From a virus (taxonomy: Duplodnaviria; Caudoviricetes): a DNA stretch of 64,000 nucleotides. The stretch lies in IMG/VR virus record IMGVR_UViG_3300042554_001750. One strand, given 5' to 3'. Position 1 is the stretch's first letter; each line of letters opens with the position of its first letter. A program made the translations under genes and the position numbers. Shown here piece by piece: positions 48,553 through 63,712 of this stretch. The notes beneath the pieces were generated by a model, which ran no database searches, had not been told where the DNA came from, and worked only from the letters and a program-made list of their open reading frames with translations.

Positions 48553-50037
48553 TTATGATATAACTTTTACATTATATAGTTTTTCAAAACGGTCGGCATC
48601 AAATCTATCATTGACCATTGGTTCGCCGCGTATATTCAATGAAGTGTTCAGTAATATAGGGCATTCGGTCATTACATACCACTTTTCTAGTAAGTCTCGT
48701 ATTCCTGATCCATCTTTCGGAACAGTTTGTACACGACTAGTCCCATCATAATGAACAATAGCAGGGAACTTGTTTGGAAATTTGCACTTTGCAATAACTT
48801 GCATGTATCTGCTGTTGTTCCAATTTTTAGGCATATCAAAATACTTATGCACATGCTCCTCTAGAATTATAGGGGCAAATGGTCTGAATTTCTGTCTGCG
48901 TTTGATTTCATTTACTTTGTCTTTAATTTCGTTCCCTCTAGGATCTGCTAACAAACTACGGTTGCCTAAGGCTCTTGGGCCAAACTCTGCTTTACCACTA
49001 GCCACACCAACAATACGATCGGTAAAAAGACAATCAAGTATACGGTTAGTAGGATAAGGACCAGGGATATTGTGGCCGAGAAAAGCACTAGTCCAATTAA
49101 GGTGCTTGCGATAACCAAGCGCAGCGGCTCCCAAACTAGAACCGCAATCACCAGGATTAGGCATAATCCATATTTGATCAAAATATTCTCCTAGTAGTCT
49201 GTTAGCAAGACAGTTTAGTGCAACACCGCCGCCATACACTAAATTGCGACTCGCGCCTTTTAGTCTGGCTTTTGACATTACTTCCCGCAATAATTGTTCT
49301 AAGAACACTTGACTAGAGCTTGCAATATCCATTGGATCTGCGTCTTTTAAAAACTCATCATCAGCGCCAATGTGCAGATTTTGTTTAAAGTCAATGGAAT
49401 GCATATTCTCTATAAATTCCGAATGCATCAAATCAGTATACTTGGGTTCTCCGTATGCAGCCATTCCCATAAGAATATATTCTTCATCCATTGGCTTTAA
49501 ACCAACTTTATGAGTCATGGCACTATAAAATAAACCTAAACTGTTTGGATATTGTTTGCTGTATAGTTTTATGTATTTTGCATTACCGTTATTATCGTAA
49601 TATGCATCCCATATTGTTATGGTATCAAATTCTCCAATAGCATCTATAATAACCACTGTAGCATCAGTAAAAGGACTAGTTTGAAAACTAGCTGCGGCAT
49701 GACTTAAATGATGATTATGTTTTTTAATACTTTTTTTGCCCAACATGTTATACATGTTGGGTCCTACTAATTCAGAATCAAACAAATTCAATAAAGAAGG
49801 TTTTTCTCCGGCACGGAGTTGTCTTAGTATCTTATAAAACGGTCTTTCGTAATAATGAAGTTCAAAATCACCAGTTGCATGATTCAACGCATCTTGAACA
49901 ATACTTGCACACAAATTTTTGTCGTGCTTGTGTTTGCTGTATCTTTCACTATGGCTGGCAAAAAGTATATCACCCGTTCCAGAGATGACAGTTAATCCGG
50001 CATCATGAAAACCGTTGCTTATACCTATATAGTTCAT
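48553..50037 (-). CDS. Carbamoyltransferase (NodU/CmcH family)
   Basis: FHDAG, HH.SHAA, DAIGE, GGVALNC, EFGPRALGNRS, FRPFAP, RVQT, NTSLN. Confidence 0.92.
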   Translation of the reverse strand: MNYIGISNGFHDAGLTVISGTGDILFASHSERYSKHKHDKNLCASIVQDALNHATGDFELHYYERPFYKILRQLRAGEKPSLLNLFDSELVGPNMYNMLGKKSIKKHNHHLSHAAASFQTSPFTDATVVIIDAIGEFDTITIWDAYYDNNGNAKYIKLYSKQYPNSLGLFYSAMTHKVGLKPMDEEYILMGMAAYGEPKYTDLMHSEFIENMHSIDFKQNLHIGADDEFLKDADPMDIASSSQVFLEQLLREVMSKARLKGASRNLVYGGGVALNCLANRLLGEYFDQIWIMPNPGDCGSSLGAAALGYRKHLNWTSAFLGHNIPGPYPTNRILDCLFTDRIVGVASGKAEFGPRALGNRSLLADPRGNEIKDKVNEIKRRQKFRPFAPIILEEHVHKYFDMPKNWNNSRYMQVIAKCKFPNKFPAIVHYDGTSRVQTVPKDGSGIRDLLEKWYVMTECPILLNTSLNIRGEPMVNDRFDADRFEKLYNVKVIS

Positions 50038-50166: not shown

Positions 50167-51249
50167 TCATAACAAATGATGGAAATTGTGATTGATCCGT
50201 TCGGATTTGTTATTTATCTTGTATAATTCAGCTAGGAAATCTTTAAACTGTGGGTGTGCAGGATCAAAGATTGAAATATTACTAATGTCTTTAATCGTAT
50301 ACGCACCGGTATTCCAATGTACTATTTGTCTATAATTGATACTAAAAGTAAACGATGCCTTTTCAAAAATTTCCAACATCAAATTATAAAAAATTTCCAT
50401 TTCTTTATAATTGTATTGAGAAACAACCATTGACAATGTTAGATGTTCAAGCGTAGTTTGTGTTCGTAAAAACTTTAAATTCTCAATTAGTGCATCCCAA
50501 TCACCATTCAATCTGGTAATATTTTCATAAGTATGTTTTGTGCCAGCGTCAATACTTATTTCCATTGTTTTAATAAAGGGCTTGGCTTTTAACTTATCCC
50601 ACATTTTTTCAGTCAACAATACACCATTGGTAATAATGTGTATTCTTTCAAGATTGGGATACTTACTAGCATCAAAATTTATAAGATAATCTCTGTATAA
50701 CTTGCTATAAAAGGGATCACCACTTCCCGTAATCATTATAACCTTAGCAGATTCACTAAATTCGTTATCTACTGCATCTAGTAAATATTTTTTTGTTTTA
50801 TGACTTTCAGATTCAAGGTCATCGTTAGGAACAAAATCTTTTCTGCATGAGGGACATTTTAAGTTGCAACTTCTATCAAATCCAAATAATATTTGTTCTG
50901 GAAATCCTGAATAATTTTCTAAATCATATGATTGTTGAAATTCTTCAATCGTTATAAAGTCCTTAGGCTTTACACCCGTGTTTACAAGTTGTGACAACTG
51001 AGGGCATACTTTATGGTCACAAAACTTATAAGTACCATCAGTTACTGACTCTCTAATATCTTTTACGGTCTGTGAAAACCAACTTTGTTTTAGTGTTTCG
51101 GTATCATTAAAGTTTGTGTTATTTTGTCTGATATTTGTAGGACACCAGCTGGGGCAACACACCCACTGAGTATCCTGCTGTATATCAATGTACTTAAAAG
51201 GATTTAAACAGACATACTTTTTAAGTATGTCTTTATTTTCTTGTTTCAT
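50167..51249 (-). CDS. Radical SAM protein with N-terminal SPASM/twitch-like Cys cluster
   Basis: CNLKCPSC; CLNPF...CC...C...C. Confidence 0.88.
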   Translation of the reverse strand: MKQENKDILKKYVCLNPFKYIDIQQDTQWVCCPSWCPTNIRQNNTNFNDTETLKQSWFSQTVKDIRESVTDGTYKFCDHKVCPQLSQLVNTGVKPKDFITIEEFQQSYDLENYSGFPEQILFGFDRSCNLKCPSCRKDFVPNDDLESESHKTKKYLLDAVDNEFSESAKVIMITGSGDPFYSKLYRDYLINFDASKYPNLERIHIITNGVLLTEKMWDKLKAKPFIKTMEISIDAGTKHTYENITRLNGDWDALIENLKFLRTQTTLEHLTLSMVVSQYNYKEMEIFYNLMLEIFEKASFTFSINYRQIVHWNTGAYTIKDISNISIFDPAHPQFKDFLAELYKINNKSERINHNFHHLL

Positions 51250-52105
51250 AATGGAAGGGATCTCTTGCCTGTAACTCAGCCATCATTTGTTTGAAATTTT
51301 CTTCGGAGGTCTGATCTATTGTAGGACTATTTTCAAGATTTTGATCAAGCCAATCTTTCAACATTTTAGCATATTCTTGATGAGCAAAATAACCTGGATG
51401 AGGATCATCAGAATATCCCTTAATTTCATCACAAACAAATTTATTATTATCTCTTGAATATGCCAATATATTACTATAAAATAAATCGTTTTTATTGAAA
51501 AACTTATCATAAAATTTATACATATAACCGTGCATAAGTTTTATTGCAATATTGTTAGATTTACAAAACAAGTATAATCCAATCATGTCCCGGCTTATTT
51601 TTTTCCAAAACTCAAAAGTGTTATGAAATTTTTCAAAGTAGTGTTTAAAATCTTCTTGGACATCATCTACGCCTTCTGGGCGAGGATTATAGCAAGGAGT
51701 AGCGTATGCAAATTTTTGTGTGCTTAATTCTGAATTACAAATAAAGTATTTGCCCCAGTCATTGTAATACAGTTCACTTCTTCCGGGATCGGGCATTTCT
51801 AAAAACAAAAATAATCTATGACGATTATCCCAGTTTTTTTCCAAAAATTCATAAGTCATTCTTATGACTCTATCCAATCCTCCCCCACACTCGGCTTCAT
51901 TGACACATTGTATGTTAATCAGTTTAGATAGCATGGCTCCATAATTTGCTTCAGTGCGTGTATCACTCCAAGATACATTATACAAGGTTTTGTAGCCCTC
52001 TAAACATTTTTCATTCCATGGTGCGATAGTGGTATCTTCTAATCCGCCCCCCATAGTATATGAGCTACCATTGATGTAAAATAAGTCGTAACCTTTATAA
52101 CTCAT
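51233..52105 (-). CDS. SGNH/GDSL-like hypothetical protein
   Basis: NGSSYT block I, DPHPG block V. Confidence 0.55.
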   Translation of the reverse strand: MSYKGYDLFYINGSSYTMGGGLEDTTIAPWNEKCLEGYKTLYNVSWSDTRTEANYGAMLSKLINIQCVNEAECGGGLDRVIRMTYEFLEKNWDNRHRLFLFLEMPDPGRSELYYNDWGKYFICNSELSTQKFAYATPCYNPRPEGVDDVQEDFKHYFEKFHNTFEFWKKISRDMIGLYLFCKSNNIAIKLMHGYMYKFYDKFFNKNDLFYSNILAYSRDNNKFVCDEIKGYSDDPHPGYFAHQEYAKMLKDWLDQNLENSPTIDQTSEENFKQMMAELQARDPFHYETRK

Positions 52106-52641
52106 GATGCATAATATAATTCAGGGTATTCTACTAATACATGCACTCCGCCGTTTTGATATGCCTCTAGATAAGATTTTTCAATCAAATTATATGAAGT
52201 CAAATCATAAAAAGAAATATTTTTACACATGTTTTTGAATTCATTAATATAATTACCCTTATGTTGATGACCCGGATCTAGTGGCTTATCTGACCCTTTA
52301 CCCAATCTAATTATTAAATTAATTTTATGGCCGGTCATAAGTTCGTATTTGTCTACATGATTAATCAATTGATTGGCTGCACAAATAATAAAATCCCATC
52401 TTGGATAAAAAGTAATAACAGTTTTGCCTGTCATTGCAATGCCCAAACTCATTCCCATTTGAGTTTCTTCCATTACGGGAAGCTCTATCATTTTTTCTTT
52501 TGGCACATTATTAAGTGTTGTGCTCATTGGATTGCCAGCGTACAATATCTGCTGTCCAATAAAAATTGTATCCCCCTTGGTGCCCAATTCTGTCATTACT
52601 GACGACAATGCATCTTTATATACAGAATTATTGTCGCTCAT
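52102..52641 (-). CDS. TPP-enzyme beta-type subunit (PDH E1-beta/transketolase pyrimidine-binding domain only)
   Basis: ELPVMEETQMGMSLG.A, DF...A.NQL.N, GHQH. Confidence 0.8.
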   Translation of the reverse strand: MSDNNSVYKDALSSVMTELGTKGDTIFIGQQILYAGNPMSTTLNNVPKEKMIELPVMEETQMGMSLGIAMTGKTVITFYPRWDFIICAANQLINHVDKYELMTGHKINLIIRLGKGSDKPLDPGHQHKGNYINEFKNMCKNISFYDLTSYNLIEKSYLEAYQNGGVHVLVEYPELYYAS

Positions 52642-53470
52642 ATTGATCCAACTTTTCTATGATGTTTTTTGCCATTACTTGATGACATTCTAATGAAGGA
52701 TGATGATCTTTGGGAGGATCTTCAAAGAAAACGGTATCTCCATTAATAACCAAATTCCTATTTTCTTTCATCATCGTTTCCATACAATCGTATTTTTGAT
52801 TGTTATAGTTTATTTCCATAAATCTTTTGTTCAACCATTCATCTTGCTTGATATACTGTACAAAGTCTACAGGCCAAGAATAAATTATAGTTTTTATTCC
52901 CTTGCTTTCAAAATGCATTAAAAACTTTTTTACTTTCATCAAACTGTGTTGGATATATCTTGCTGATAACTCATCAAAGGTGTAATTTTTATCTCTAATG
53001 TATTTAAAAAAGTTTATAGACTCAACCGACCCGTCGTTCAATAAGTCTTGCCAAGAAAATGTAAAGTTATGTCCATCTTCTATAACTTGTTTTTTATCCC
53101 GAGTCCAGTATGTTAGTTGGTACACAAGGTATTTTACCTCATTGTATCCGTAACAGTTACGGTCAGCCATTGGTTTTTCACCCTGAAATAATTCATAAAA
53201 ATAGCCCATAATTGAATCATTTGATCCGCCGTTATTTTTCTGAACTATTTCAAATGTATTAAAATGATTCGCAACTAATCTCGCGCCTCGCACAGAATCT
53301 TTGAAATTAAATTGTGCTTGAGTTAACAATGACTCATTGTATGCATCCGGTGCAGGTTCATCTAATGTAGGTAAGTTACTGTAATAATATAGTCCTTGAC
53401 CCCAAGTAAATGAACAGCCAGCAAATGCTATCCCTTTCCTAATATTAGTATTTGGTTTTACTTTAAACAT
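52628..53470 (-). CDS. SGNH/GDSL-like hypothetical protein
   Basis: AGCSFTWGQG, GGSN, DHHPS. Confidence 0.55.
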   Translation of the reverse strand: MFKVKPNTNIRKGIAFAGCSFTWGQGLYYYSNLPTLDEPAPDAYNESLLTQAQFNFKDSVRGARLVANHFNTFEIVQKNNGGSNDSIMGYFYELFQGEKPMADRNCYGYNEVKYLVYQLTYWTRDKKQVIEDGHNFTFSWQDLLNDGSVESINFFKYIRDKNYTFDELSARYIQHSLMKVKKFLMHFESKGIKTIIYSWPVDFVQYIKQDEWLNKRFMEINYNNQKYDCMETMMKENRNLVINGDTVFFEDPPKDHHPSLECHQVMAKNIIEKLDQYERQ

Positions 53471-53888
53471 TTTGATCTCGTTGACTCCAACTGATTTCCC
53501 AGTCTTTAAATTCGGCTGCTAAACAATCTACTTTGTAATCTTTTCTGCCACCAATCGCTTCTTGAATTACATTTTTAGCTGTATTTCGTATACCATTTAA
53601 TCCATGAGTTAACTCTAGATTATTACCATCTTTAATTCCACGCCGATAATTACTTTCATTATGCCAAATATGCAAGTTCATTTGAGACACAACAACTACT
53701 GCTCGTATTGTTTCAGCAGTAATTACACCATTATTCTCATCTAAAATCATTTGTATATCGTGTACAATATCTGCAATTTCTTGAGAATATGCTTCTTTAT
53801 GTTCGGGTATAAACACTTCTTTAAGTTGAACAATACTTAAACGGTCAATTAAATCACCAAGTGAATGTAGATATCGGCGCTGTTTCAT
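53463..53888 (-). CDS. Hypothetical protein (DUF6165-like helical)
   Basis: SLGDLIDRLSIVQLK, N..IW..E, N..R. Confidence 0.55.
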   Translation of the reverse strand: MKQRRYLHSLGDLIDRLSIVQLKEVFIPEHKEAYSQEIADIVHDIQMILDENNGVITAETIRAVVVVSQMNLHIWHNESNYRRGIKDGNNLELTHGLNGIRNTAKNVIQEAIGGRKDYKVDCLAAEFKDWEISWSQRDQNV

Positions 53889-54820
53889 AAGTTTGTAAAG
53901 TTTCTATTATTGTGATTTATCGTCATTTGATATGCACTAATTAATTGTTGGATTCCATAATCTAAACTAAAACTTGGTCTCCAACCCAAACTTTCTAGTT
54001 TTTGATTACTAACAATATAATTTCTCTTATCAAAATCTTCTTTGAACTCATCCTGCTTGATTACCAAAGACGGGACATGTTCTTTTATCTTATTTGCTAA
54101 TTCTAACTTGCTTAAGTTAGCATCAGACAACCCAACATTATATACATTATGGTTGCAAATATTATAATTGGATACCATGAACAAAAATGTTTGAGCTATG
54201 TCTTGCACATGTATATAATTTCTTTTGAAGTTTGCCTCAAACAATACTAGGTAACCATCTGTGACTGATTTATAAACAAAGTCATTGACCAATAAATCCT
54301 GTCTCATACGAGGGCTAACACCAAATACGGTAGCCAAACGCAATACAATACCATTACTTTTATCTAGCACATATTGTTCAGCATCGCACTTTGTCTGCGC
54401 ATATAGACTTAACGGCTTGAATGGGCTATCTTCAGTAATAATTGAATCGCTAGATCCATATTGACTGTTTGTATTGGGTATTATCAATTTCTGATCGTTA
54501 CTTAACCAATCCACGATGTTTTTGATTTGTTTATAATTAACATCAACCGTAAGCTCTGGATTGGATTTGCATGCAGGCATGCCAACAATCGCTGCTAACG
54601 GAATCACTATATCATGTGTAGTAACCAGTTCTTTTAGCAATTCGGTATTACGCACATCACCTTGAACAAACTTAAATTTTTCATGCTTGAATAGATGCAA
54701 CAAGCTAAGTTGCTTGTACATTAAGTTGTCCAAAACCGTAACTTCATACTGTTGCTGTAAAAAGTATTCGGCCATAGTAGAGCCCAAATAGCCGGCGCCG
54801 CCTGTAATTAAAACCTTCAT
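53885..54820 (-). CDS. NAD-dependent sugar epimerase/dehydratase
   Basis: ITGGAGYLGS, YAQTK, RLATVFG. Confidence 0.9.
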   Translation of the reverse strand: MKVLITGGAGYLGSTMAEYFLQQQYEVTVLDNLMYKQLSLLHLFKHEKFKFVQGDVRNTELLKELVTTHDIVIPLAAIVGMPACKSNPELTVDVNYKQIKNIVDWLSNDQKLIIPNTNSQYGSSDSIITEDSPFKPLSLYAQTKCDAEQYVLDKSNGIVLRLATVFGVSPRMRQDLLVNDFVYKSVTDGYLVLFEANFKRNYIHVQDIAQTFLFMVSNYNICNHNVYNVGLSDANLSKLELANKIKEHVPSLVIKQDEFKEDFDKRNYIVSNQKLESLGWRPSFSLDYGIQQLISAYQMTINHNNRNFTNL

Positions 54821-54828
54821 AGCAGTAT

Positions 54829-55821
54829 TTACGGCTTACTGTTTGGATTGAATAAATTTTTGTTAGCTTTGTACCAATCTAGAGTTAATTTCAACCCCTC
54901 TTCAATTGTGAACTTGGGAGTCCAGCCTAATTGATTGATTTTCTTAGATGACAACAATCTTTTCGGTATCATAGGAGCCTTGTTGTTTACATATTCAACA
55001 GGATTATTGTTGTTTTCTATCTTTTTCAAGGTATCTAATATTTCATTTACGGTATACCCTTCACCATAACATACATTGTATATGTCGTATTTGTCTACTT
55101 TTTCAGCAACAAAAATAATACCTTCAGCCATATCTTCAACATACAACAAATCACGGACTTCAGTGCCGTCGCCCCATACTGGTATAGGATTAAGATTGTC
55201 TGCAACTTTTCTTATATTAGCTGGAGTAACGTGACACTTTTCATAATCAAACTTATCATTGGGACCAAACGCATTGCTAGGCCTAATGATGACACATTGC
55301 ATTGGATCATGGATTTGATTGGAAAAGAACTCGCAAAGTTGCTCACCATATCTTTTCATTCCACCTACAGCTTTGTATATGGGAACTAAATCTGTCTTGT
55401 GAATATCAAGGTCTTCAGCGCAATAGCCGTCCTTCAAATCGGGATATGTAGTATTAGAACTTATGAACACAAACTTTTTAACTTTGTTTCTCCAACTTTG
55501 TTCCAAAAGATTTGTATTCATTTCCACATTGGGTGTTACATGTAACAATGGATTTACTTTTGTATCCAATGCGTTAGATGTGTTCGCTGAACAATGTATA
55601 ACCACATCTATGTCTTTAGTGATTTCATTGCAAAATTCTGCATCTCGCAAATCACCTTTAAGGTTAGTTATATTTTTAGAGCCATCAAAATCAAATTTTG
55701 GTTCTCTAGAAAATGTTGTGGTTACAATATTAGTGTAGCCTTTTTGATGAAGTAGTTTTAAAATATTTGAGCCTATAAAACCACTCACGCCTGTTAATAA
55801 TATTCTACTGTTTTTATTCAT
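54829..55821 (-). CDS. GDP-L-fucose synthase-like epimerase/reductase
   Basis: TGVSGFIG, RPSNAFGPND, VWGDG...RDLLYVEDMA. Confidence 0.8.
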   Translation of the reverse strand: MNKNSRILLTGVSGFIGSNILKLLHQKGYTNIVTTTFSREPKFDFDGSKNITNLKGDLRDAEFCNEITKDIDVVIHCSANTSNALDTKVNPLLHVTPNVEMNTNLLEQSWRNKVKKFVFISSNTTYPDLKDGYCAEDLDIHKTDLVPIYKAVGGMKRYGEQLCEFFSNQIHDPMQCVIIRPSNAFGPNDKFDYEKCHVTPANIRKVADNLNPIPVWGDGTEVRDLLYVEDMAEGIIFVAEKVDKYDIYNVCYGEGYTVNEILDTLKKIENNNNPVEYVNNKAPMIPKRLLSSKKINQLGWTPKFTIEEGLKLTLDWYKANKNLFNPNSKP

Positions 55822-56807
55822 AATTCCTCATTTAAGTGTTTTTGTTGATACTTTTTTACAGTATGTTCTATGCCATCCTTAAGGGATGTTTTCGGCACTA
55901 TGCCATACTGCACTTGCTTGTCAGCCGACAAACATCTAAGCAAATCACCATTTGGTTTAGTAGTATCCCAAATAATTTCTTTTCTTGTTCCGGTTAATTT
56001 TTCATAGACTTCTACTATAGTTTCAATTGTTTCTTTTATTGATACTGCTTTACCACAACCAAAGTTTATAGTATCTTTTACTTCTTTTTTAACTGTGTCA
56101 ATCGCAGCTTGTGCTACATCATCACCGAAAACGAAGTCTCGTTTCGCGGACCCATCGCCCCAACAAATCATTTTGTCAGTATTAAATAGTTTCCAAATAT
56201 TTGAACTTATTACTGTGGCATCTTGTGCGAAGTTGTCATTCTTTCCATAAATGTTAGAGGGGCGAATGATAGTATATCTATCAAAATTATACTGAATCTT
56301 TAGAGCATCTAACGCCAACTCTCCTATGCGTTTTGCCCAACCCGGATGCCAATCATTTTTGCTAGGCATTGTTTCCCAAACAGTATCTTCAACCATCACA
56401 TCTGCCGGAGCATATACGCCCACACTTGACATGTATACTAGCCATTCAACATTTGCTTCAAATGCTGCTTTAAAAATATTCGTATTAAACATTAGCATAG
56501 GAAACATATAATCTGCCGGCGATGTTTTTGTTCTCTGGGGCGATCCCTTGATGCCTGCTAAGTGTAAAACAACATGTATATTTTTATTTTTAAATAGGTT
56601 CTCGCAGTTGGTCAAATAGCACAAATCAGTTTGAACTAATTCAATAATGTCAGGATTTAACTGTTGTAATGCGATTAATTCTTGATTAAACCGTAAGTCA
56701 ACTGCGTAAATTTTGCTAACATTTTCATTTAATAATTTTTCAACGGTCGGTAGTCCAACTAATCCGTTAGCTCCAGTAACAACAACATTTTTATTTTGTA
56801 AATTCAT
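55818..56807 (-). CDS. GDP-L-fucose synthase-like epimerase/reductase (second paralog)
   Basis: TGANGLVG, WAKR, RPSNIYG.ND, WGDG...RDF, WDTTKPNG. Confidence 0.8.
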   Translation of the reverse strand: MNLQNKNVVVTGANGLVGLPTVEKLLNENVSKIYAVDLRFNQELIALQQLNPDIIELVQTDLCYLTNCENLFKNKNIHVVLHLAGIKGSPQRTKTSPADYMFPMLMFNTNIFKAAFEANVEWLVYMSSVGVYAPADVMVEDTVWETMPSKNDWHPGWAKRIGELALDALKIQYNFDRYTIIRPSNIYGKNDNFAQDATVISSNIWKLFNTDKMICWGDGSAKRDFVFGDDVAQAAIDTVKKEVKDTINFGCGKAVSIKETIETIVEVYEKLTGTRKEIIWDTTKPNGDLLRCLSADKQVQYGIVPKTSLKDGIEHTVKKYQQKHLNEEL

Positions 56808-58230
56808 TTTTATATATTATTCCGGCGTCCTTAATCACCTGTTTGAAAACTTCATAATGAGAAAATGTTTGAAGATGTTTTTGGTTGTGAACCAAAATAT
56901 CAATAATTGAATAATACCATTCGTGAAGTTGATTGATGGGCATATTATTTAGTTGTATAACCTGATCTCCTGCTAATTTCATTCTCTTTAATGGATCAGG
57001 TTCTTCATCGTATGACTCATCAATAAAAGGAGAAAAAGTTTTAAAGCCCAAATCTTTCAATGTTTTTAATGCATGGTAGTCTCCGAAATACACGAAAGGC
57101 TGCAAATTCATAAAAGGTCTTACTGTTTTTTCTGAAAAGAAAGGAGTAAATTTTTCGTTGTTCATACATGTTTCACTTACAATATGAACATATGTGCTAC
57201 TATAAAAATCTTTATTGTAATTGTCTACTGTACCAAATCCAGATAATTCTTTATATGACAAATGCTGGGTATCCAATTGAATCGGAACTCTAGATTTTAA
57301 GTCATCAATATATTTGTTAATATTAAGTTGATCTAAACCGTTCAAAATGTTTTTTATGTTGTAAAAATTGTTAGCAATGTTATTGATATCATTGATAACT
57401 AAAAAACTAAAATAACTGTTTTCGTATAGTTTATGCTTCAAGTATAGATAAGCCAAATAAATCCTGTGGCTTTTTCCATAATGCCTATTAAAGCATAAAA
57501 AACGTTTAGTTCTGGGTATACCGGTTAGCTCTTGCTCTCTAACTAAATCAGATATATATCCCAATTGTGTCTGTCGGGGGTACCGACTGAATAATTTTCC
57601 ACCCTCATATAGTGCCAAAATACCAGTGACTGTATTGTATTCAGAATCAAGTTGCTTATTGCCAGCAATGAATATTGGATTATTTTTAGGTATGCCAACT
57701 TTTTCTAAATTTGACATAAAAAATTCTAAGTGTCTATCATGATGGCAAGGATCTTGAATTCCACAAATCAATAGCCTTACTTTGTTCGTTTTGAGTAATG
57801 AAACTATTTTTTTCGGTAAGCTATCTGTAAAGGAACATTTGGTTTCCGATCCATCAACATTAACACAATAATCATTGTACAGAACATGATTACCCTTGTT
57901 AGTTTCAATGGGGTAGAAATAAACATTGTCATCGTCTTTTATTTCATTTTCGTTGACAAAACAAGTGTCTATAAAAAACTCATTTAAATATGTCATCAAT
58001 AAAGAATGCCCAAGCATGAAAAAATTTTCATATTCAGGATATTTTTCAAGAATCTTTTTTTCTAGGTTCTCTTGGCTTCCAAATCCTACCTGAATTGTTT
58101 CATTGTAGAATTTATAGTATTGTTTAATACCTTCGGGATGTATACCATTGGCTATAGGAAAATTGCCACGCGGTGTTTTTAACCAATGCGTGTATACAAA
58201 CTTAAAATGCGATCCATTTACCAGAGCCAT
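56791..58230 (-). CDS. Putative GT-B glycosyltransferase-like protein
   Basis: FLCFNR...HR, IVSET, SEKT.RP...QPF, LGFKTFSPFIDESYD. Confidence 0.5.
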   Translation of the reverse strand: MALVNGSHFKFVYTHWLKTPRGNFPIANGIHPEGIKQYYKFYNETIQVGFGSQENLEKKILEKYPEYENFFMLGHSLLMTYLNEFFIDTCFVNENEIKDDDNVYFYPIETNKGNHVLYNDYCVNVDGSETKCSFTDSLPKKIVSLLKTNKVRLLICGIQDPCHHDRHLEFFMSNLEKVGIPKNNPIFIAGNKQLDSEYNTVTGILALYEGGKLFSRYPRQTQLGYISDLVREQELTGIPRTKRFLCFNRHYGKSHRIYLAYLYLKHKLYENSYFSFLVINDINNIANNFYNIKNILNGLDQLNINKYIDDLKSRVPIQLDTQHLSYKELSGFGTVDNYNKDFYSSTYVHIVSETCMNNEKFTPFFSEKTVRPFMNLQPFVYFGDYHALKTLKDLGFKTFSPFIDESYDEEPDPLKRMKLAGDQVIQLNNMPINQLHEWYYSIIDILVHNQKHLQTFSHYEVFKQVIKDAGIIYKNEFTK

Positions 58231-58831
58231 AATGCGGGTATTTTGATTTGTATGTGTAGTAAATTACATCATCGGGTATGTCACGTTGCACATTCCATGT
58301 TTTAACTGTCGGTGTGTAAGTTGAAATTCCATTATCTTCAACGACAAAGTATAAAGGTAAATCAAAATTTCTAGCGTACTTGTGCACCTCATAAAATGCA
58401 CCAGTTTCAAAACACATATCACCGATGAAACACCAGACCTTTTCTTGTTTATTATCTAATTTAATTGATTGAGCTACACCCAATGCTATAGATAATGTTG
58501 ATGCCACGATAGCAGACGAATAAAACTTTTCTTCATGATTGCATATTGTAATTGATTTTCCTTTAAGTATTTCTTCTTCAAGCCAACTAGTATCAAGACC
58601 TTTTAAAAGTGCGTGATAATGGGATCTCCATGTACTAAAAACCCAATCATTTTTATCTATTCTTTTAAAAATTTCAATTAATGGATTCTCATTACCATTA
58701 CTCAAATGTACCGGGCCTCTGATTTTGGCATTTTCCCAATGGTCTATGATCTTAAGTTCAAAATCAATAAGGTCATTTTCAGTAAATCCAATATCTCTAA
58801 CTATTGGATAATTTTGCAAGTTTTTAATCAT
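58202..58831 (-). CDS. TPP-enzyme alpha-type subunit (PDH E1-alpha-like, short)
   Basis: HLSNG.E, WRSHYH, GDMCFETG...FVVEDNG TPP-binding motif. Confidence 0.82.
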   Translation of the reverse strand: MIKNLQNYPIVRDIGFTENDLIDFELKIIDHWENAKIRGPVHLSNGNENPLIEIFKRIDKNDWVFSTWRSHYHALLKGLDTSWLEEEILKGKSITICNHEEKFYSSAIVASTLSIALGVAQSIKLDNKQEKVWCFIGDMCFETGAFYEVHKYARNFDLPLYFVVEDNGISTYTPTVKTWNVQRDIPDDVIYYTYKSKYPHYGSGKWIAF

Positions 58832-58837
58832 AGATGT

Positions 58838-59383
58838 TTATTTGTCTCGTTCTTGTAATAAGGGCGTTGTGGTGGGCCACTCTAAATTAAATCTAGGATC
58901 ATTAAATTTTATGACTCCCTGATCCTTCACATCATAGTACTCGCCTTTATAGAATAGGTAATAATGAAAGATGCAATCAGTCAATGCATAATGACCATTA
59001 GCGAACCCCGGCGGTATTAAAACTTGATGCCTGTGCTTTTCAGATAAGATATAAGATTCATATTTGCCATATGTCTCTGATCCTTCTCTTACATCCAACA
59101 CTACCAAATATATGTCACCAACTAATGCTTGTACCAACTTATATGTTTTAGTATCGTAGTGCAAGCCTCTAAGCACATTTTTATAAGACTTACTGAATCT
59201 GCTGTGAAAATGTAAATCTTTAGGTAAGACTGAGTTTACGGGATGCAACTCGTCATGATATGTGGTAAAAATCTCTCCACGATGTTCATGAAAAACAGAA
59301 GGGGCAAAGATAGGAACTTCGTTACCAAATGTAGTTAAGTACGAAGTTTCAAAATCTTGCCATTTCTTTAATTTGTAGTTCAT
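58838..59383 (-). CDS. rmlC: dTDP-4-dehydrorhamnose 3,5-epimerase-like cupin
   Basis: RGEI, VLRGLHY, KLV....G, DVR..S.TYGK, IPPGFANG. Confidence 0.85.
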   Translation of the reverse strand: MNYKLKKWQDFETSYLTTFGNEVPIFAPSVFHEHRGEIFTTYHDELHPVNSVLPKDLHFHSRFSKSYKNVLRGLHYDTKTYKLVQALVGDIYLVVLDVREGSETYGKYESYILSEKHRHQVLIPPGFANGHYALTDCIFHYYLFYKGEYYDVKDQGVIKFNDPRFNLEWPTTTPLLQERDK

Positions 59384-60795
59384 GAATATAATTTATCTCT
59401 AAGAGTGTCTGTAAGATTTTTTGAGTATGAATTATTTTTGTAAAAATTAACTAAATGGTTCTGATTGTGAATCAATATATCTTCCATAGACCAATACCAG
59501 TTATGTAGTTCTTGGATAGGCATATCACACAAACGTTTTATTTCTTGGTATATCTTTTGCAGTCTAATACTGTTATTTGATTCATTATCATAGCTTTCAT
59601 CAATGAACGGAGAAAAAGTTTTAAAACCCAGTTCTCGTAACAATTTTAGCGAACCCGGCCACGATGCAAACACAAAGGGCATAAAATGTGCGATGGGCTT
59701 GAATACTTTTTCAGTTAAGGATTTGTTGGATAAATCCATGTATGTTTCGGTGGCGATATACAAATAACTACTAAGATAACTGTTAGGTACATCTGCCCAG
59801 CCACCTAATGAGTAAAAATCTTCATTAGCCTCATCACTTAAGGTTTTAGGAAGCTCGTTATGTAATTCCATTATTTTTTCTGGTTCAATTTTATTGAATC
59901 CAAAATTTGTTAGGGTTAGGTTCAAATGATTAATATCATGGTTTAATTTTTGTAGGCAAGACCAATTGCCCTTATTTAAATACCCATCATTATATAATTG
60001 AGCTAATAATACTTGTCTATGATCTCTGGGTCTACGAATCTTGAATAAGAAATGTTTAGGTCTTAGCTGATTTTTAGAAGATAGAAAATCCTCTCTATTC
60101 AATGTTTTTATATGTTTATTTTCACCGTAATGAAATGACGAATTTAAAATCATGTAGGGAAAATTAACTACATTTAACATTCTCTCCTCTTCAGAAAACC
60201 ATTCTTTATAAACATCTGCACCATTAAATGTGTTAAACAATAAAAACACTTGCGATGGAGAAATACCGCTTTTTCGTAAACCACGGTGTAAATTTTCATA
60301 AATGTATTTTGGAACTTCGTTTTCTTGTAAGTAGTCAAGAACAATAAAAGCCCTACCTTGTCTGGCGTCAGTAAGAGCTTCATGTGACATATATTTCCAA
60401 AAATACTCACCATTGAGTTTGCTACCAGTGCATGTGTCCCCGGTAAAATCATCAATGTATGGCGTCATACTAACAGGATACAAATACTTATTATATTGTT
60501 TTTTACCCATAAACAAGGATGTTGAATCAATTTCAATATAGTCTTGTAGGCTTCCTGTTCTAAGTTGTGAGTCGGAATTCCAGCATGCTGGCCAATGACC
60601 ATTCCCTAAACTATCGCCGAATATTTTTTGAAATAAATCGCTACTTTGATTTGACATAAACAAATCATTTCCGTTACTTCTGTTACTATGCTGACTGTGA
60701 ATATAATTGATCAAAACAAAATCCATTTTCATACAATTAGGAATAACATAAGCCGGAAATACATAATCGTAAAATAGGGGAATTTTAACTCTCAT
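59380..60795 (-). CDS. Putative GT-B glycosyltransferase-like protein (paralog of 56791..58230)
   Basis: R..HR, IATET, TEKVFKP...MPF, LGFKTFSPFIDESYD. Confidence 0.5.
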   Translation of the reverse strand: MRVKIPLFYDYVFPAYVIPNCMKMDFVLINYIHSQHSNRSNGNDLFMSNQSSDLFQKIFGDSLGNGHWPACWNSDSQLRTGSLQDYIEIDSTSLFMGKKQYNKYLYPVSMTPYIDDFTGDTCTGSKLNGEYFWKYMSHEALTDARQGRAFIVLDYLQENEVPKYIYENLHRGLRKSGISPSQVFLLFNTFNGADVYKEWFSEEERMLNVVNFPYMILNSSFHYGENKHIKTLNREDFLSSKNQLRPKHFLFKIRRPRDHRQVLLAQLYNDGYLNKGNWSCLQKLNHDINHLNLTLTNFGFNKIEPEKIMELHNELPKTLSDEANEDFYSLGGWADVPNSYLSSYLYIATETYMDLSNKSLTEKVFKPIAHFMPFVFASWPGSLKLLRELGFKTFSPFIDESYDNESNNSIRLQKIYQEIKRLCDMPIQELHNWYWSMEDILIHNQNHLVNFYKNNSYSKNLTDTLRDKLYS

Positions 60796-60797
60796 GA

Positions 60798-61607
60798 TTA
60801 TTCCCCAAATGGCCTAAAGTAGACTGATTTGTCATATTTTTTACTAAAAAGATCATAAAATTTTATACCCTGTTCTCGTTGACTATCTTTAATGTTAATT
60901 TGTTCACAATAGTAAAATAATTTTTCAGACAATGGTGTATTAAATTCTGGAAACATCTTTTTCATATATTGATAATGCACATATTGTGAGGGATGTCCGT
61001 CAAAATTATTTTTATCTTTCCAAAACTGTTGAGTTTTTTCTTTATTTTCAATTTGATCTAAATCTGAAAAAAAAGTCGTTAGTGACAATGGATCATCCGC
61101 AATGCTATAAATCATGTCACTAACTTTGAATATATCTTCATCAGATAATTCTTTTGTGTTAGTTAAATACCAGTCATAGTCAAGTCCTAATAAAATTTTA
61201 TGTTTAATTTTCTTTAAATCTAAAATCTTTTTAATTGTGCGTGCGGCTACCCAGGCATTATATACTTGCCATTTTTCAGACCAAATATTATCAACAATCC
61301 AAACTACATCTTTGTTACTTGGATTACTTGCTGCATGTACTACCAAATCCCCGTGAGTTTGTAGGCTATCGGATTTCATATAAGAAAATCTACCAATGCC
61401 TGTAAGCATTACAACTACATAATCTGTTTCTGAATTAAAATTCAATTTAGTGTCTGCTTCTATTAGACGATTGCTAATAAGTCGCATATCTGATCCAGAT
61501 CTACCATAGTTATAGTATTCGTCAAAATTTGCTGATAAAAAGTCAGCCCAGGTGCCATATACATATTTGGTCATGCTGCAACCAAATGCAAACAATCTTT
61601 TTTTCAT
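60798..61607 (-). CDS. SGNH/GDSL-like hypothetical protein
   Basis: AFGCSMT, DGHPS. Confidence 0.55.
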   Translation of the reverse strand: MKKRLFAFGCSMTKYVYGTWADFLSANFDEYYNYGRSGSDMRLISNRLIEADTKLNFNSETDYVVVMLTGIGRFSYMKSDSLQTHGDLVVHAASNPSNKDVVWIVDNIWSEKWQVYNAWVAARTIKKILDLKKIKHKILLGLDYDWYLTNTKELSDEDIFKVSDMIYSIADDPLSLTTFFSDLDQIENKEKTQQFWKDKNNFDGHPSQYVHYQYMKKMFPEFNTPLSEKLFYYCEQINIKDSQREQGIKFYDLFSKKYDKSVYFRPFGE

Positions 61608-62278
61608 TTTTTAAGTATCCAATTATATAAATTATCAGCTATCCAAATATGACCGGTTTCACTAGGGTGGTATCCATCATTAGCAAGTAACTTCAATTCT
61701 TTACATACAACTTTATTAAGTGAATTGTTGTATCCTAAAAAATACTTTTCTTTCTTTATTCCACTGTGCAGGTTTTTAGTTAATGAATCATTTTCCCAAA
61801 ATCTATACCTTAATAATAAATTATCATCTACTGCATTCATAAAAGCATAATTTAATTTATTATTTTCTAAAAAGTTTTGCAACAACAATTGCTGTTGATA
61901 AAGAGTAGTTAGAGAATCGTAATCAGAATATATATTGGCATAAAAATACTTCATATTTTCGCCATCTTCAGAAATTGTGTTATCTTCATTTAATGGTACA
62001 TGTCCTGGTAGGTACATATTCCAATTATTAAATTTTCTAGAATAGAACATAGTTCGGGTGAACCCTGTCCAAGAAAAAATAATGAAGGTGTCTGGTGTAA
62101 ATTTTTTTAAATCTTCAAAGAAGCGAATTAAAGAAAATTTGTTAGAGCCACCTCTTTCCCCGCGATTAAAGACGGGAACATTAAATTTATTACCTAAAAG
62201 CTGTGGCCAGGCGTCCTCTTGTTTGACACCATCACCGTACACAAAACTACAGCCATACGCATAAATCTCTGAAATCAT
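61604..62278 (-). CDS. SGNH/GDSL-like hypothetical protein
   Basis: AYGCSFVYGDG, GGSN, DGYHPS..GH. Confidence 0.6.
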   Translation of the reverse strand: MISEIYAYGCSFVYGDGVKQEDAWPQLLGNKFNVPVFNRGERGGSNKFSLIRFFEDLKKFTPDTFIIFSWTGFTRTMFYSRKFNNWNMYLPGHVPLNEDNTISEDGENMKYFYANIYSDYDSLTTLYQQQLLLQNFLENNKLNYAFMNAVDDNLLLRYRFWENDSLTKNLHSGIKKEKYFLGYNNSLNKVVCKELKLLANDGYHPSETGHIWIADNLYNWILKK

Positions 62279-63711
62279 TCGTCTTTATACTCCCCTTCTT
62301 CATGGTGGCTTATACCTATATTGTGTAGTGGTTTTATTTCAAAGGTTTTATTTAACTCTATAGATTCGTACCAATCTTTTAACTCAGGAAAGGTTTCAAC
62401 TAAATTTTTATTTCTTCTTTCATCATACTGAGTAAAGAAACTTTTAAAATCATGAAATAATAAAGCTTTGTCGTCAGTCACAAAAGTATGACCGGTTTTT
62501 ACTACTTCAATATAATCAAGTAATCTTTGAATTTGCGCCTTCTCTCCCTCAGATAGCAATTTACTTTGTTTGTGCTTTTTAAACCATTTTAATAATTTTG
62601 CGTGTAAAGTACTTTTGATATCATCCGGTAGAGTTACAGGACTCATCATGCCAGGCCATCTTAAAATGTTTAAATCTAACAATGGTTTAACTGTACCATA
62701 TTTTGCCTTTAATTTAAGCATGTCATCCATAAATTCTGTGATGCTGAATAAGCACAAATTATTAATGGTCATCATAATTGTTAGCATGCTTAAATTGGCA
62801 TTATCAAGCAACTTAACCATGTTCTCTCGCCACTTTACATAATCTAAACCATCTCGTATATACTCGGCATGTTTGCCGTAACTTTCATTGCTTGTAAATA
62901 TTCTTACTTCTTTAACAGGTAAAGTTTTTGTAACATCTATCAACTTTTGCAATGCCTTCTCTGACATTCCCAAATTGGTGTTTACCGCAAAGTTCATGTT
63001 AGGTGATGCGAACTCATGCATTTTATCAACAAATCGCCAAAAGTTCTGACTTACAGTTGCTTCACCGCCTGTAATTCTTAATTCCATTAAGGATTGCGAC
63101 AATTCAGGCCACCATTTAAAAAAGGCATCTACATATGGATTTTCATCTAAATGTTTGCCGTATGCTTCAGCCCAACTTCCATCTGTTTGATATGCTCCAC
63201 CCCCGCCGCCTGGCGCGATAAAGTTTTGGTATGCACCGTTCTTTTCTAAATCTTGTGCCCAAGTCGTGCTGTAACCCGCATTACAATAACTGCATGCAAA
63301 GTTGCATTGTCTGTCAAAACTTATCTCCAAAGTCTTTAACAAAACATCTTGATCCCAAGGCAGGTCTTTTAACTTTACAATATCTTCGTAATTGTAAAAT
63401 ATGCTTTTATAAACTCGGTCACTGACATTATCTCTTTGTATGCCTTCAACTTTCCAGCAGTAGTTACATTCTGCAGGTCGTACACCTTCTAGCATCATTT
63501 TTCTTACATTTTTCTTATGATCTGTGTTGTGCAATGCTGATGGATTCTGTGCTACCTGATCTTTGTCCATTAAATGTGGTAAGGGCAGGTGACAAGACCC
63601 AGTGTAACCTGATCCTAAGAAAATAGAAGCATTATACCACTTAGCTGCGCAAAAGCTAGGGCTGATAGCGTCTAAAACATTTTTGCGCCATTGGATCAAA
63701 TTTGTTGACAT
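62275..63711 (-). CDS. Radical SAM protein with N-terminal twitch-like domain
   Basis: CNFACSYC, ITGGE; FCAAKW...SCH...CNYCW. Confidence 0.88.
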   Translation of the reverse strand: MSTNLIQWRKNVLDAISPSFCAAKWYNASIFLGSGYTGSCHLPLPHLMDKDQVAQNPSALHNTDHKKNVRKMMLEGVRPAECNYCWKVEGIQRDNVSDRVYKSIFYNYEDIVKLKDLPWDQDVLLKTLEISFDRQCNFACSYCNAGYSTTWAQDLEKNGAYQNFIAPGGGGGAYQTDGSWAEAYGKHLDENPYVDAFFKWWPELSQSLMELRITGGEATVSQNFWRFVDKMHEFASPNMNFAVNTNLGMSEKALQKLIDVTKTLPVKEVRIFTSNESYGKHAEYIRDGLDYVKWRENMVKLLDNANLSMLTIMMTINNLCLFSITEFMDDMLKLKAKYGTVKPLLDLNILRWPGMMSPVTLPDDIKSTLHAKLLKWFKKHKQSKLLSEGEKAQIQRLLDYIEVVKTGHTFVTDDKALLFHDFKSFFTQYDERRNKNLVETFPELKDWYESIELNKTFEIKPLHNIGISHHEEGEYKDE

Positions 63712-63712
63712 A

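What the first reader, a model, noticed from the sequence alone, without database searches (positions are those of the whole stretch)
52102..58831. Minimal split TPP enzyme (short E1-alpha + E1-beta lacking its C-domain): branched-chain sugar synthase candidate
Seen: 209-aa alpha-like and 179-aa beta-like genes 5.5 kb apart, both truncated relative to PDH E1, embedded among 4-keto-sugar epimerases and RmlC, no E2/E3. Known: TPP enzymes transfer two-carbon units from pyruvate onto NDP-4-keto-6-deoxysugars (YerE for yersiniose; AviB1/B2 PDH-like pair for eurekanate). Inference: phage makes a C-branched sugar rather than boosting central metabolism, so an AMG annotation as pyruvate dehydrogenase would mislead.
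Basis: partly seen in the sequence, partly recalled or inferred. Interest (0 to 1): 0.6.

Follow-up and report, generated by a model that had tools for sequence, protein, structure and literature searches.

The report
Minimal split thiamine enzyme, phage sugar cluster
A large freshwater phage carries a stripped-down two-gene thiamine enzyme, wrongly named "pyruvate dehydrogenase" by automatic annotation, that sits among heptose-type keto-sugar enzymes and most likely adds a small carbon branch to an activated sugar; the family is very widespread and its product has not been tested in anything I could search.

Summary
The gap is 5.56 kb.

- **One enzyme:** the two ORFs tile a fused ~400-aa phage family (phrog_34187; cyanophage S-SM2 and P-TIM68).
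- **Pairing:** they co-occur in 79 of 83 viral and 75 of 80 cellular loci.
- **Spacing:** cellular genomes keep them adjacent (median gap 2 nt). In these phages tailoring genes have pushed them 0-9+ kb apart.
- **Not a dehydrogenase complex:** the E2-docking domain is absent, and six related phage records hold no lipoyl domain (two also searched for an E2 core: none).
- **Neighbours:** they resemble the Campylobacter jejuni capsular GDP-heptose enzymes. These are a C4-dehydrogenase (57% identical to PDB 6VO6), a 4-keto-heptose 3,5-epimerase and GDP-fucose-synthase-like reductases.

Best reading (about 0.55): a minimal E1-type carboligase that adds a pyruvate-derived C2 unit to the keto-sugar, as AviB1/B2, Pau11/12 and KbDH do. 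The chemistry is inferred, not shown. This scan has noted the same cassette before on other DNA.

The parts
58202..58831 (-). Mini E1-alpha (209 aa): PP (ThDP-diphosphate/Mg-binding) domain plus a family-specific conserved tail (Y192, Y194, P199, H200, G202, G204, F209)
   Evidence: (phrog_34187 positions 2-199, 1.4e-45)
52102..52641 (-). Mini E1-beta (179 aa): Pyr domain only. Catalytic Glu58 and the TK/E1-beta-type His127 are invariant in the family. No C-terminal (E2-docking) domain.
   Evidence: (phrog_34187 positions 237-401, 6.2e-24)
58838..59383 (-). RmlC-family C3/C5 epimerase of the GDP-4-keto-heptose type, 6 nt upstream of alpha
   Evidence: PF00908, 5e-35; best PDB hits are C. jejuni GDP-D-glycero-4-keto-D-lyxo-heptose 3,5- and 3-epimerases at about 1e-40, against RmlC at about 1e-23. 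Lies directly upstream of alpha in most viral loci.
53885..54820 (-). SDR311: Cj1427-like NDP-sugar C4-dehydrogenase, the enzyme that would generate the keto-sugar
   Evidence: E 4e-98, about 57% identity over the full length to PDB 6VO6/6VO8. YxxxK is present and the RmlB-type Asp-Glu pair is absent. Homologues at 43-49% identity lie beside the alpha-beta pair in cellular loci.
54829..55821 (-). SDR330: GDP-L-fucose-synthase-like reductase or epimerase
55818..56807 (-). SDR329: second GDP-L-fucose-synthase-like SDR
56791..58230 (-). u479: phage-only family of about 450 aa, overlapping the end of the alpha gene by 29 nt; function unknown (weak GT10-like lead)
59380..60795 (-). u471: paralogue of u479
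52628..53470 (-). u280: SGNH/GDSL-like by motif only (GCSFTWG ... DHHP), overlapping the beta start by 14 nt
   Evidence: sequence read by eye. No Pfam or PHROG hit. Paralogues occur in relatives.
53463..53888 (-). u141: small helical protein, about 75% identical among relatives; DUF6165/DUF4254-like lead
50167..52105 (-). Downstream genes of the same unit: u290 (51233-52105, unknown) and a twitch-type radical SAM enzyme (50167-51249)
48553..50037 (-). Carbamoyltransferase (NodU/CmcH type), frequently next to the cassette in relatives
60798..63994 (-). Upstream genes of the same strand block: u269, DUF6071/GDSL-like (224 aa), radical SAM (478 aa, CxxxCxxC) and u93

Best explanation
The 209-aa and 179-aa proteins most likely assemble into one heteromeric, probably alpha2beta2, thiamine-diphosphate enzyme. 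It is cut down to the two domains that bind and activate the cofactor. Proposed pathway: (1) the Cj1427-like SDR311 oxidises C-4 of a host-supplied activated sugar, most likely a GDP-heptose-type sugar; (2) the Cj1430-like epimerase scrambles C-3/C-5; (3) the mini-E1 decarboxylates a 2-oxo acid, most likely pyruvate, and adds the resulting ThDP-bound acyl-anion equivalent to the sugar ketone, giving a C-acetyl-branched tertiary alcohol; (4) the fucose-synthase-like SDRs, SGNH-like proteins, radical SAM enzymes and carbamoyltransferase tailor the product; (5) it is transferred to a phage or host-surface glycan. Shown here: homology, retained cofactor and catalytic residues, loss of the E2-docking domain, obligate alpha-beta pairing, and the link to 4-keto-sugar enzymes. 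Inferred: complex formation, the donor, the acceptor and the branching chemistry.
For: One enzyme: alpha and beta tile phrog_34187 end to end. Natural fusions of about 400 aa exist in S-SM2, P-TIM68, P0134, P0221 and P0237. Beta accompanies alpha in 79/83 viral loci, with the rest explained by locus ends, and in 75/80 cellular loci, 70 of them adjacent. Catalytic competence: the alpha residues GDM..EDN, H42, E48, R69 and H71 and the beta residues E58, Q126 and H127 are 90-100% conserved over about 150 sequences. The AF2 model of fused P0134 has pLDDT 86.8, and its folds match E1-beta, TK and DXS. Not PDH: beta ends after the Pyr domain, whereas solved E1-beta chains run 323-338 aa; there is no lipoyl domain, and no E2 core where searched. 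Keto-sugar link: SDR311 is 57% identical to 6VO6/8; the epimerase groups with named GDP-4-keto-heptose epimerases; 40 of 43 long cellular loci carry a Cj1427-like or RmlC-like gene near the pair; the Massilia and Nitrospira loci add a GHMP kinase and NTP_transferase, Massilia also a HAD phosphatase, all of the GDP-heptose route. Precedent: E1-like pairs install C2 branches on keto-sugars (AviB1/B2 and Pau11/12, PMC4425429 and PMC4753412), and KbDH-alpha/beta couples pyruvate to ketones in vitro (PMC12247030).
Against: No biochemical or genetic data exist for any member of this mini family. The characterised sugar-branching E1 pairs are full length. The conserved alpha tail with His200 has no counterpart in E1 by sequence and is disordered in the model, so the active site may differ. 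The Cj1427/Cj1430/reductase trio is a complete pathway on its own in C. jejuni (PMC10680097), so the ThDP step is an add-on of unknown position. The fused cyanophage forms lack a close Cj1427-like neighbour and sit next to a Zn-ADH instead. The related phages encode no NTP_transferase or GmhA, so the nucleotide and the sugar are not established. The identity of 6VO6 with Cj1427 is from my memory; the papers were not held.
Confidence: 0.55

Rival explanations
1. The enzyme works in the same sugar pathway but does different ThDP chemistry. Options are retro-acyloin or transketolase-like C-C cleavage or rearrangement of the alpha-hydroxy-ketone sugar, linear chain extension at an aldehyde, or production of an activated acyl group for O- or N-acylation. 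In some lineages it may work together with a B12-dependent radical SAM enzyme.
For: The family sits in the TK/DXS/E1 superfamily, whose members both cleave and form ketols. Acetoin-cleaving AcoA was the only other phage-database hit to alpha. Beta is fused to a B12-binding radical SAM domain in an archaeal MAG, and B12-rSAM genes lie in some phage cassettes, which suggests more elaborate carbon chemistry. The distinct conserved alpha tail fits a changed active site.
Against: Ring-cleaving chemistry would destroy the glycosyl donor. There is no acyl carrier, lipoyl or CoA-ligase partner. The precedents for E1 pairs in sugar clusters are all C2 branching (PMC12247030).
Confidence: 0.25
2. It is a genuine 2-oxo-acid or acetoin dehydrogenase E1 that boosts host central metabolism by using the host E2/E3, as the automatic 'pyruvate dehydrogenase E1' names imply.
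For: The best sequence matches are PDH and BCKDH E1 subunits, and JGI names the homologues pyruvate/acetoin dehydrogenase E1 alpha.
Against: Beta lacks the whole C-terminal domain that carries the E2 peripheral-subunit-binding site in heterotetrameric E1 (established knowledge, compare PDB 1W85). Alpha lacks the C-terminal third that holds the loop His used for lipoyl acylation. The gene context is always sugar genes, in phages, bacteria and archaea alike.
Confidence: 0.03
3. It serves the Cj1427-like dehydrogenase indirectly by consuming or supplying its 2-oxo-acid co-substrate. For example it could decarboxylate 2-oxoglutarate or another 2-oxo acid to pull the C4 oxidation, without touching the sugar.
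For: Cj1427 needs 2-oxoglutarate to reoxidise its tightly bound NADH (PMC10680097). The pair co-occurs tightly with Cj1427-like genes.
Against: Removing the oxidant would hinder the oxidation, not help it. C. jejuni needs no such helper. The cyanophage fused forms lack a close Cj1427-like neighbour.
Confidence: 0.05

Closest known systems
E1-type ('alphaKADH2') sugar-branching ThDP enzymes: AviB1/AviB2 (avilamycin eurekanate), Pau11/Pau12 (paulomycose), KbDH-alpha/beta (kibdelomycin)
   Same: They are PDH-E1-like alpha/beta pairs without E2/E3, encoded inside sugar clusters. They are proposed, and for KbDH shown in vitro, to transfer a pyruvate-derived C2 unit to a keto-sugar or ketone (PMC4425429, PMC4753412, PMC12247030).
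   Different: Those subunits are full length (Pau11 325 aa, Pau12 345 aa). They act in actinomycete TDP-deoxysugar antibiotic pathways, and the branching is proposed to follow glycosyl transfer. Here the sizes are 209 and 179 aa, there is no beta C-domain, the alpha tail is novel, the context is heptose-type, and the carriers are phages and many uncultured bacteria and archaea. I could not fetch their sequences, so no phylogeny was made.
YerE (yersiniose A) and YerE-like enzymes (ErwE, MMAR_2332, MygE)
   Same: ThDP-dependent attachment of an acyl branch from a 2-oxo acid to C-4 of an NDP-4-keto sugar in a surface-polysaccharide pathway (PMC12247030, PMC9306805).
   Different: YerE is a single-chain enzyme of the decarboxylase (DC) superfamily per PMC12247030 (from memory, acetolactate-synthase-like, about 560 aa). 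The phage proteins belong to the TK/E1 superfamily: E1_dh and Transket_pyr match, with only a weak TPP_enzyme_C hit.
Heterotetrameric 2-oxo-acid dehydrogenase E1 (PDH, BCKDH, acetoin DH AcoA/AcoB)
   Same: The PP and Pyr domains are homologous, with the Mg/diphosphate motif, the catalytic Glu and the beta active-site His all present.
   Different: The beta C-terminal domain and the last third or so of alpha are missing. There is no E2, E3 or lipoyl partner, and the pair is never found in a central-metabolism context.
Campylobacter jejuni capsular GDP-heptose modification enzymes (Cj1427 C4-dehydrogenase, Cj1430 C3/C5-epimerase, Cj1428 C4-reductase)
   Same: SDR311, the RmlC-like protein and the two fucose-synthase-like SDRs are their closest solved relatives. 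Cellular cassettes also carry a HddA-like kinase and HddC-like transferase, Massilia also a GmhB-like phosphatase.
   Different: The C. jejuni pathways contain no ThDP enzyme: 'thiamine' occurs 0 times in PMC10680097. The phage lacks the GDP-heptose-forming genes.
Cyanophage 'transketolase central region-containing protein' (S-SM2 SSM2_198, P-TIM68 gp190; phrog_34187, function unknown)
   Same: It is the same family in fused form, with 38-40% (alpha part) and 32-33% (beta part) identity, and it lies inside phage heptose/NDP-sugar clusters.
   Different: It is a single 381-402-aa chain, it sits next to a Zn-ADH, and it has no close Cj1427-like neighbour.

Membership tests
2-oxo-acid dehydrogenase E1 (alpha2beta2 type) | PP domain with the GDG-X(25-30)-N ThDP/Mg motif | tested here: met
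   G137-D138-M139 ... E165-D166-N167. D138 is about 91% conserved, N167 and M139 about 100%. It aligns with the human E1-alpha GDG...ENN.
2-oxo-acid dehydrogenase E1 (alpha2beta2 type) | Pyr domain with the catalytic Glu and the active-site His | tested here: met
   E58 aligns with the BCKDH beta Glu in 'PLCEQG'. E58, Q126 and H127 are invariant in 151 betas, and the fused homologues read GPTHSQ / GPQHTQ there.
2-oxo-acid dehydrogenase E1 (alpha2beta2 type) | Beta C-terminal (transketolase-C-like) domain that docks E2 | tested here: not met
   Beta is 179 aa and ends after the Pyr domain. Foldseek aligns only about 181 columns of 323-338-aa E1-beta chains. The family median length is 179 aa.
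2-oxo-acid dehydrogenase E1 (alpha2beta2 type) | Alpha C-terminal region with the loop His used in reductive acylation | tested here: not met
   The profile of 43 mini-alphas aligns only to human E1-alpha 44-211 (profile positions 8-167 of 198). The tail has no E1 match.
2-oxo-acid dehydrogenase E1 (alpha2beta2 type) | E2 / lipoyl / E3 partners | tested here: not met
   No Biotin_lipoyl in six related phage records and no 2-oxoacid_dh in the two searched. None among the window ORFs scanned.
E1-type sugar-branching carboligases (AviB1/B2, Pau11/12, KbDH) | E1-like alpha/beta pair encoded in a sugar cluster beside a keto-sugar-forming enzyme | tested here: met
E1-type sugar-branching carboligases (AviB1/B2, Pau11/12, KbDH) | Full-length three-domain E1 architecture (about 325 + 345 aa) | tested here: not met
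   209 + 179 aa against Pau11 325 and Pau12 345 aa (PMC4425429).
E1-type sugar-branching carboligases (AviB1/B2, Pau11/12, KbDH) | Transfer of a pyruvate-derived C2 unit to a sugar ketone | not testable with these tools
   This needs an enzyme assay or a product structure.
E1-type sugar-branching carboligases (AviB1/B2, Pau11/12, KbDH) | Phylogenetic grouping with the characterised members | not tested
YerE-like ThDP enzymes | Single-chain decarboxylase-superfamily (acetolactate-synthase-like) architecture, TPP_enzyme_N/M/C | tested here: not met
   Pfam gives E1_dh and Transket_pyr, with only a weak TPP_enzyme_C hit (7.9e-5) on alpha.
phrog_34187 / cyanophage fused 'transketolase central region' proteins | Match over the whole profile | tested here: met
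   Alpha covers positions 2-199 (1.4e-45) and beta covers 237-401 (6.2e-24) of 405.
C. jejuni-type GDP-heptose modification module (the neighbours) | Cj1427-like C4-dehydrogenase, 4-keto-heptose epimerase and C4-reductase | tested here: met
   That 6VO6 is Cj1427 is recalled, not verified here.
C. jejuni-type GDP-heptose modification module (the neighbours) | Own GDP-heptose supply (GmhA, HddA, GmhB, HddC) | tested here: not met
   In related near-complete phage genomes: NTP_transferase absent (two searched), SIS/GmhA absent (three searched). A GHMP kinase and NTP_transferase are present in the Massilia and Nitrospira cassettes, with a HAD phosphatase in Massilia.

The most novel reading that the evidence does not exclude
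The mini-E1 is a distinct, unclassified two-domain ThDP carboligase family. It has no third domain and carries its own His-bearing tail. It would build a C-branched or carbon-extended heptose, a nine-carbon or larger sugar not yet described, in bacteria, archaea and phages. In freshwater jumbo phages its two genes have become the fixed ends of an expandable cassette into which tailoring genes are inserted, and the product decorates the virion or remodels the host surface.
Probability: 0.35. Interest if true: 0.75.

Novelty: new variant of a known kind. Interest (0 to 1): 0.6.

Why it matters
Automatic pipelines name thousands of these genes "pyruvate/acetoin dehydrogenase E1". In viromes that would be read as a central-carbon auxiliary metabolic gene, and the evidence here says this is wrong.

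The family is very widespread. It has 2,076 clusters at 50% identity. It occurs in SAR11, Nitrospira, Massilia, CPR bacteria, DPANN archaea, cyanophages and jumbo phages. It is tied to a keto-heptose pathway whose product is unknown.

If the carboligase reading holds, three things follow. It defines the smallest known E1-type ThDP carboligase, which interests biocatalysis of tertiary alcohols. It points to an undescribed class of branched higher sugars on abundant environmental microbes and on phage particles. And it is directly testable, because cultured Massilia isolates carry the cassette.

Tried and rejected
- **Single-sequence AlphaFold of u479:** pLDDT 35, unusable. This cost one of the two structure jobs.
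- **u479/u471 family profile (A5):** no significant hit against PDB or Pfam. The GT10-like idea rests only on a motif (ITEK..KP) and an Atlas score of 0.78, so it stays a lead.
- **Alpha tail His200 as the E1-alpha loop His:** not supported by profile alignment.
- **Window rSAM478 as a B12-type radical SAM:** not related to the archaeal fusion or to L004's 742-aa enzyme.
- **Phosphonopyruvate/sulfopyruvate-decarboxylase reading:** rejected. The domain order is PP then Pyr, the matches are to E1/TK families, and no ORF scanned in the block matched a PEP-mutase family.
- **Internal promoters or terminators between alpha and beta:** counts equal the shuffled expectation.
- **Whole genome of the window:** not held.
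- **The search for related loci with the 17-sequence alignment:** failed on genome contigs, then redone with 7 sequences.
- **Cj1427 papers:** PMC7509852, PMC8240034 and PMC7500870 are not held.
- **Literature searches:** searches for thiamine + GDP-heptose and for phage + PDH E1 + nucleotide sugar found nothing.
not confirmed. PMC5843353 mentions no E1, transketolase or thiamine gene.

Full report
**1. Setting**

The window is phage DNA. PHROG matches cover the large terminase subunit, virion structural and baseplate proteins, and an HNH endonuclease. Earlier notes of this scan describe a freshwater phage genome of about 370 kb. From about 64.0 kb down to 42.9 kb every sizeable ORF lies on the minus strand, with overlapping or near-touching stop and start codons. 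Promoter-like and terminator-like sites are no more frequent than in shuffled sequence: 70 against 77.8 and 8 against 7.9. The block reads as one long transcription unit.

**2. The observation**

- **Alpha.** window:58202-58831(-) gives a 209-aa protein (P0001). It matches only the first half of E1-alpha: Pfam E1_dh 2.2e-15 over profile 7-171 of 300, and TIGR03182 5.6e-24. It aligns with human PDH E1-alpha residues 49-203. It carries the Mg/diphosphate motif as GDM...EDN.
- **Beta.** window:52102-52641(-) gives a 179-aa protein (P0002). It matches the Pyr domain of E1-beta: Transket_pyr 2.8e-5, NF006667 2.2e-8, BCKDH beta 1.3e-5. Its "PVMEETQMG" aligns with "PLCEQGIVG", which holds the cofactor-activating Glu.
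- **Spacing.** The gap between the two genes is 5,560 nt.
- **Lengths are conserved.** Over 165 alphas and 156 betas from viral and cellular loci the medians are 209 and 179 aa.

**3. Two halves of one enzyme**

- The ORFs tile PHROG 34187 (405 positions, function unknown). Alpha covers positions 2-199 at 1.4e-45 and beta covers 237-401 at 6.2e-24.
- That family is the fused "transketolase central region-containing protein" of cyanophages S-SM2 (402 aa) and P-TIM68 (381 aa), which sits inside their heptose/NDP-sugar clusters.
- Further natural fusions exist: P0134, P0221 and P0237.
- In 83 viral loci beta lies with alpha in 79, nearly always downstream on the same strand. The four exceptions are cut by the locus end or have beta more than 9.8 kb away.

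**4. How common it is, and the spacing pattern**

- The word-indexed search returned more than 5,000 homologues. The top 120 are 75-98% identical and 208-230 aa long, nearly all 208-210.
- The exhaustive search found 2,076 clusters at 50% identity, 110 of them below 1e-30. They are mostly 195-255 aa.
- The GTDB genome scan found the pair in Pelagibacteraceae single-cell genomes, Nitrospira, two cultured Massilia isolates, Spirulina, SAR116, CPR bacteria and DPANN/other archaea.

| Source of loci | Pairs | Adjacent pairs | Median gap | Other |
|---|---|---|---|---|
| Cellular | 75 | 70 | 2 nt | |
| Viral | 79 | 7 | 4.8 kb | 55 are at least 2 kb apart; range to more than 9 kb |

The alpha-beta interval has filled up with tailoring genes. 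These are paralogues of the u479/u471 family, fucose-synthase-like SDRs and SGNH-like proteins. Alpha and beta stay as its ends.

**5. Catalytic equipment**

- **Alpha (159 sequences), 90-100% conserved:** P40, H42, N47, E48, D62, R69, H71, G137, D138, M139, E165, D166, N167, and a tail Y192, Y194, P199, H200, G202, G204, F209.
- **Beta (151 sequences), invariant:** E53, P55, E58, Q61, G63, R81, D97, K98, Q126 and H127. H127 lines up with the His of the GPTHSQ / GPQHTQ motif in the fused forms. I recall this as the TK/E1-beta active-site His.
- **Model.** An AlphaFold model of the natural fusion P0134, built on a 97-row alignment of alphas, betas and fusions, is confident (pLDDT 86.8, pTM 0.85). 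The exception is the alpha tail and linker, residues 167-219.
- **Fold search.** Foldseek aligns its C-half to E1-beta Pyr domains at about 2 Å over about 181 columns of 323-338-residue chains. It aligns the whole chain to transketolase and DXS. There is no third domain.
- **The tail is family-specific.** A profile of 43 mini-alphas aligns to human E1-alpha 44-211 only. The conserved tail has no E1 counterpart by sequence.

**6. Not a pyruvate dehydrogenase**

- The beta C-terminal domain is absent. From established structural knowledge this domain carries the E2-binding site in heterotetrameric E1 (compare entry 1W85 listed).
- The last third of alpha is absent too.
- No lipoyl domain is found in six related phage records, three of them at least 95% complete, and no E2 core in the two searched.
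- The gene context is sugar genes in every lineage examined.

**7. The sugar context**

- **SDR311** (window:53885-54820) is about 57% identical over its full length to PDB 6VO6/6VO8 (4e-98). [quoted passage not shown] The structure paper was not held, so this identification is from memory. SDR311 has YxxxK but not the Asp-Glu pair of RmlB-type 4,6-dehydratases.
- **The RmlC-family protein** (window:58838-59383) hits the named C. jejuni GDP-D-glycero-4-keto-D-lyxo-heptose 3,5- and 3-epimerases at about 1e-40, against about 1e-23 for true RmlC.
- **SDR330 and SDR329** are GDP-fucose-synthase-like.
- **This matches the C. jejuni scheme:** C4 oxidation with 2-oxoglutarate as oxidant, then C3/C5 epimerisation, then C4 reduction (PMC10680097).
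- **Cellular loci.** Of 43 loci of at least 18 kb, 32 carry a Cj1427-like gene (at least 40% identity), 20 carry an RmlC-like gene, and 40 carry one or the other.
- **Massilia locus L153** reads GHMP kinase, SDR, alpha, beta, DegT, NTP_transferase, Cj1427-like, HAD phosphatase, GT1, methyltransferase.
- **Nitrospira locus L162** has the same core, followed by a Wzm/Wzt O-antigen exporter.
- **Related near-complete phage genomes** lack NTP_transferase, GmhA and bona fide RmlB/Gmd. The phage must draw an activated sugar from the host, so its nucleotide and exact sugar remain open.

**8. Mechanism**

The best-supported reading is that the pair forms a minimal E1-type carboligase. It would decarboxylate a 2-oxo acid, pyruvate by analogy, and add the ThDP-bound acyl anion to the C-4 ketone made by SDR311. 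The result would be a C-acetyl-branched sugar, which the SDRs and other enzymes then tailor.

The precedents are AviB1/AviB2 and Pau11/Pau12, which rest on genetic evidence (PMC4425429, PMC4753412). KbDH-alpha/beta couples pyruvate to ketone sugar analogues in vitro. It belongs to the "alphaKADH2" group, for which about 120 gene clusters are known (PMC12247030).

Everything from complex formation onward is inference.

Four points cut against a simple transfer of the precedent:
- The tail is family-specific.
- Beta is fused to a B12-radical-SAM domain in one archaeon.
- An SDR-2OG-oxygenase fusion lies right after alpha in L004/L005.
- The cyanophage fusions have no close Cj1427-like neighbour.

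**9. Novelty**

E1-like sugar branchers are a known kind. This is a cut-down, two-domain variant in a heptose-type context. It is shared by phages and many uncultured lineages. I found no description of it in the searchable literature.

This scan has met the same cassette repeatedly on other DNA, and earlier follow-ups reached similar readings. I reached the Cj1427 link independently, before reading those notes.

The new points here are the spacing statistics, the residue-level conservation, the fused-form model, and the negative tests for lipoyl/E2.

Noticed in passing
window:20385-25536 (-): A second, separate sugar module. It holds a DegT-family aminotransferase with the Lys-type motif SFDPTK (23532-24611), an SDR with YxxxK (24550-25536) and a class I methyltransferase (20385-21083). 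It lies next to thymidylate synthase and DHFR (25794-27151).
   Followed up: partly
window:56791-58230 and 59380-60795 (-); L084, L030: u479 and u471 are paralogues of a phage-only family of about 450 aa, present in up to four copies between alpha and beta in relatives. The conserved C-half motif reads ..IVTET.F....ITEK..KP...QPFI... It has no Pfam or PDB match. In other phages it is sometimes fused to an SDR or to an MTS methyltransferase. A GT10-like GDP-sugar transferase is a weak lead.
   Followed up: partly
window:54829-55821 and 55818-56807 (-): In the alignments to E. coli and other GDP-fucose synthases, the position of the catalytic Tyr of YxxxK is Val in SDR330 and His (with a one-residue insertion) in SDR329. 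Either the active sites are non-canonical or the alignment has slipped.
   Followed up: no
P0142, P0146, P0209 (database homologues of alpha): Some mini-alpha genes carry an intein (Intein_splicing/Hint) or a LAGLIDADG domain. One is fused behind an APH-type kinase domain.
   Followed up: partly
L158:4807-6840 (+): In an archaeal MAG the mini-beta Pyr domain is fused in one 678-aa ORF to a B12-binding domain and a radical SAM domain.
   Followed up: partly
L004:10638-12275 and L005 (same coordinates): Directly after alpha these relatives encode a 545-aa fusion of an SDR with a 2OG-Fe(II) oxygenase domain. This recalls the non-haem iron enzyme AviO2, which works with AviB1/B2 in avilamycin.
   Followed up: no
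L095, L096: Contigs filed under a Pelagibacterales MAG and a Saccharibacteria MAG have the phage-type dispersed arrangement and 73% identity to the window's alpha. They are probably phage contigs binned into bacterial MAGs.
   Followed up: no
L175-L180 (G001-G003): Related complete phage genomes encode one to three cytidylyltransferase-like proteins of about 140 aa (PF01467), far from the sugar island. They are of the same type as the gene annotated 'heptose 1-phosphate adenyltransferase' in cyanophage S-SM2.
   Followed up: no
LR756501.1:322608-324805: A 735-kb metagenomic megaphage carries the pair in the opposite order, with beta about 1.1 kb upstream of alpha.
   Followed up: no
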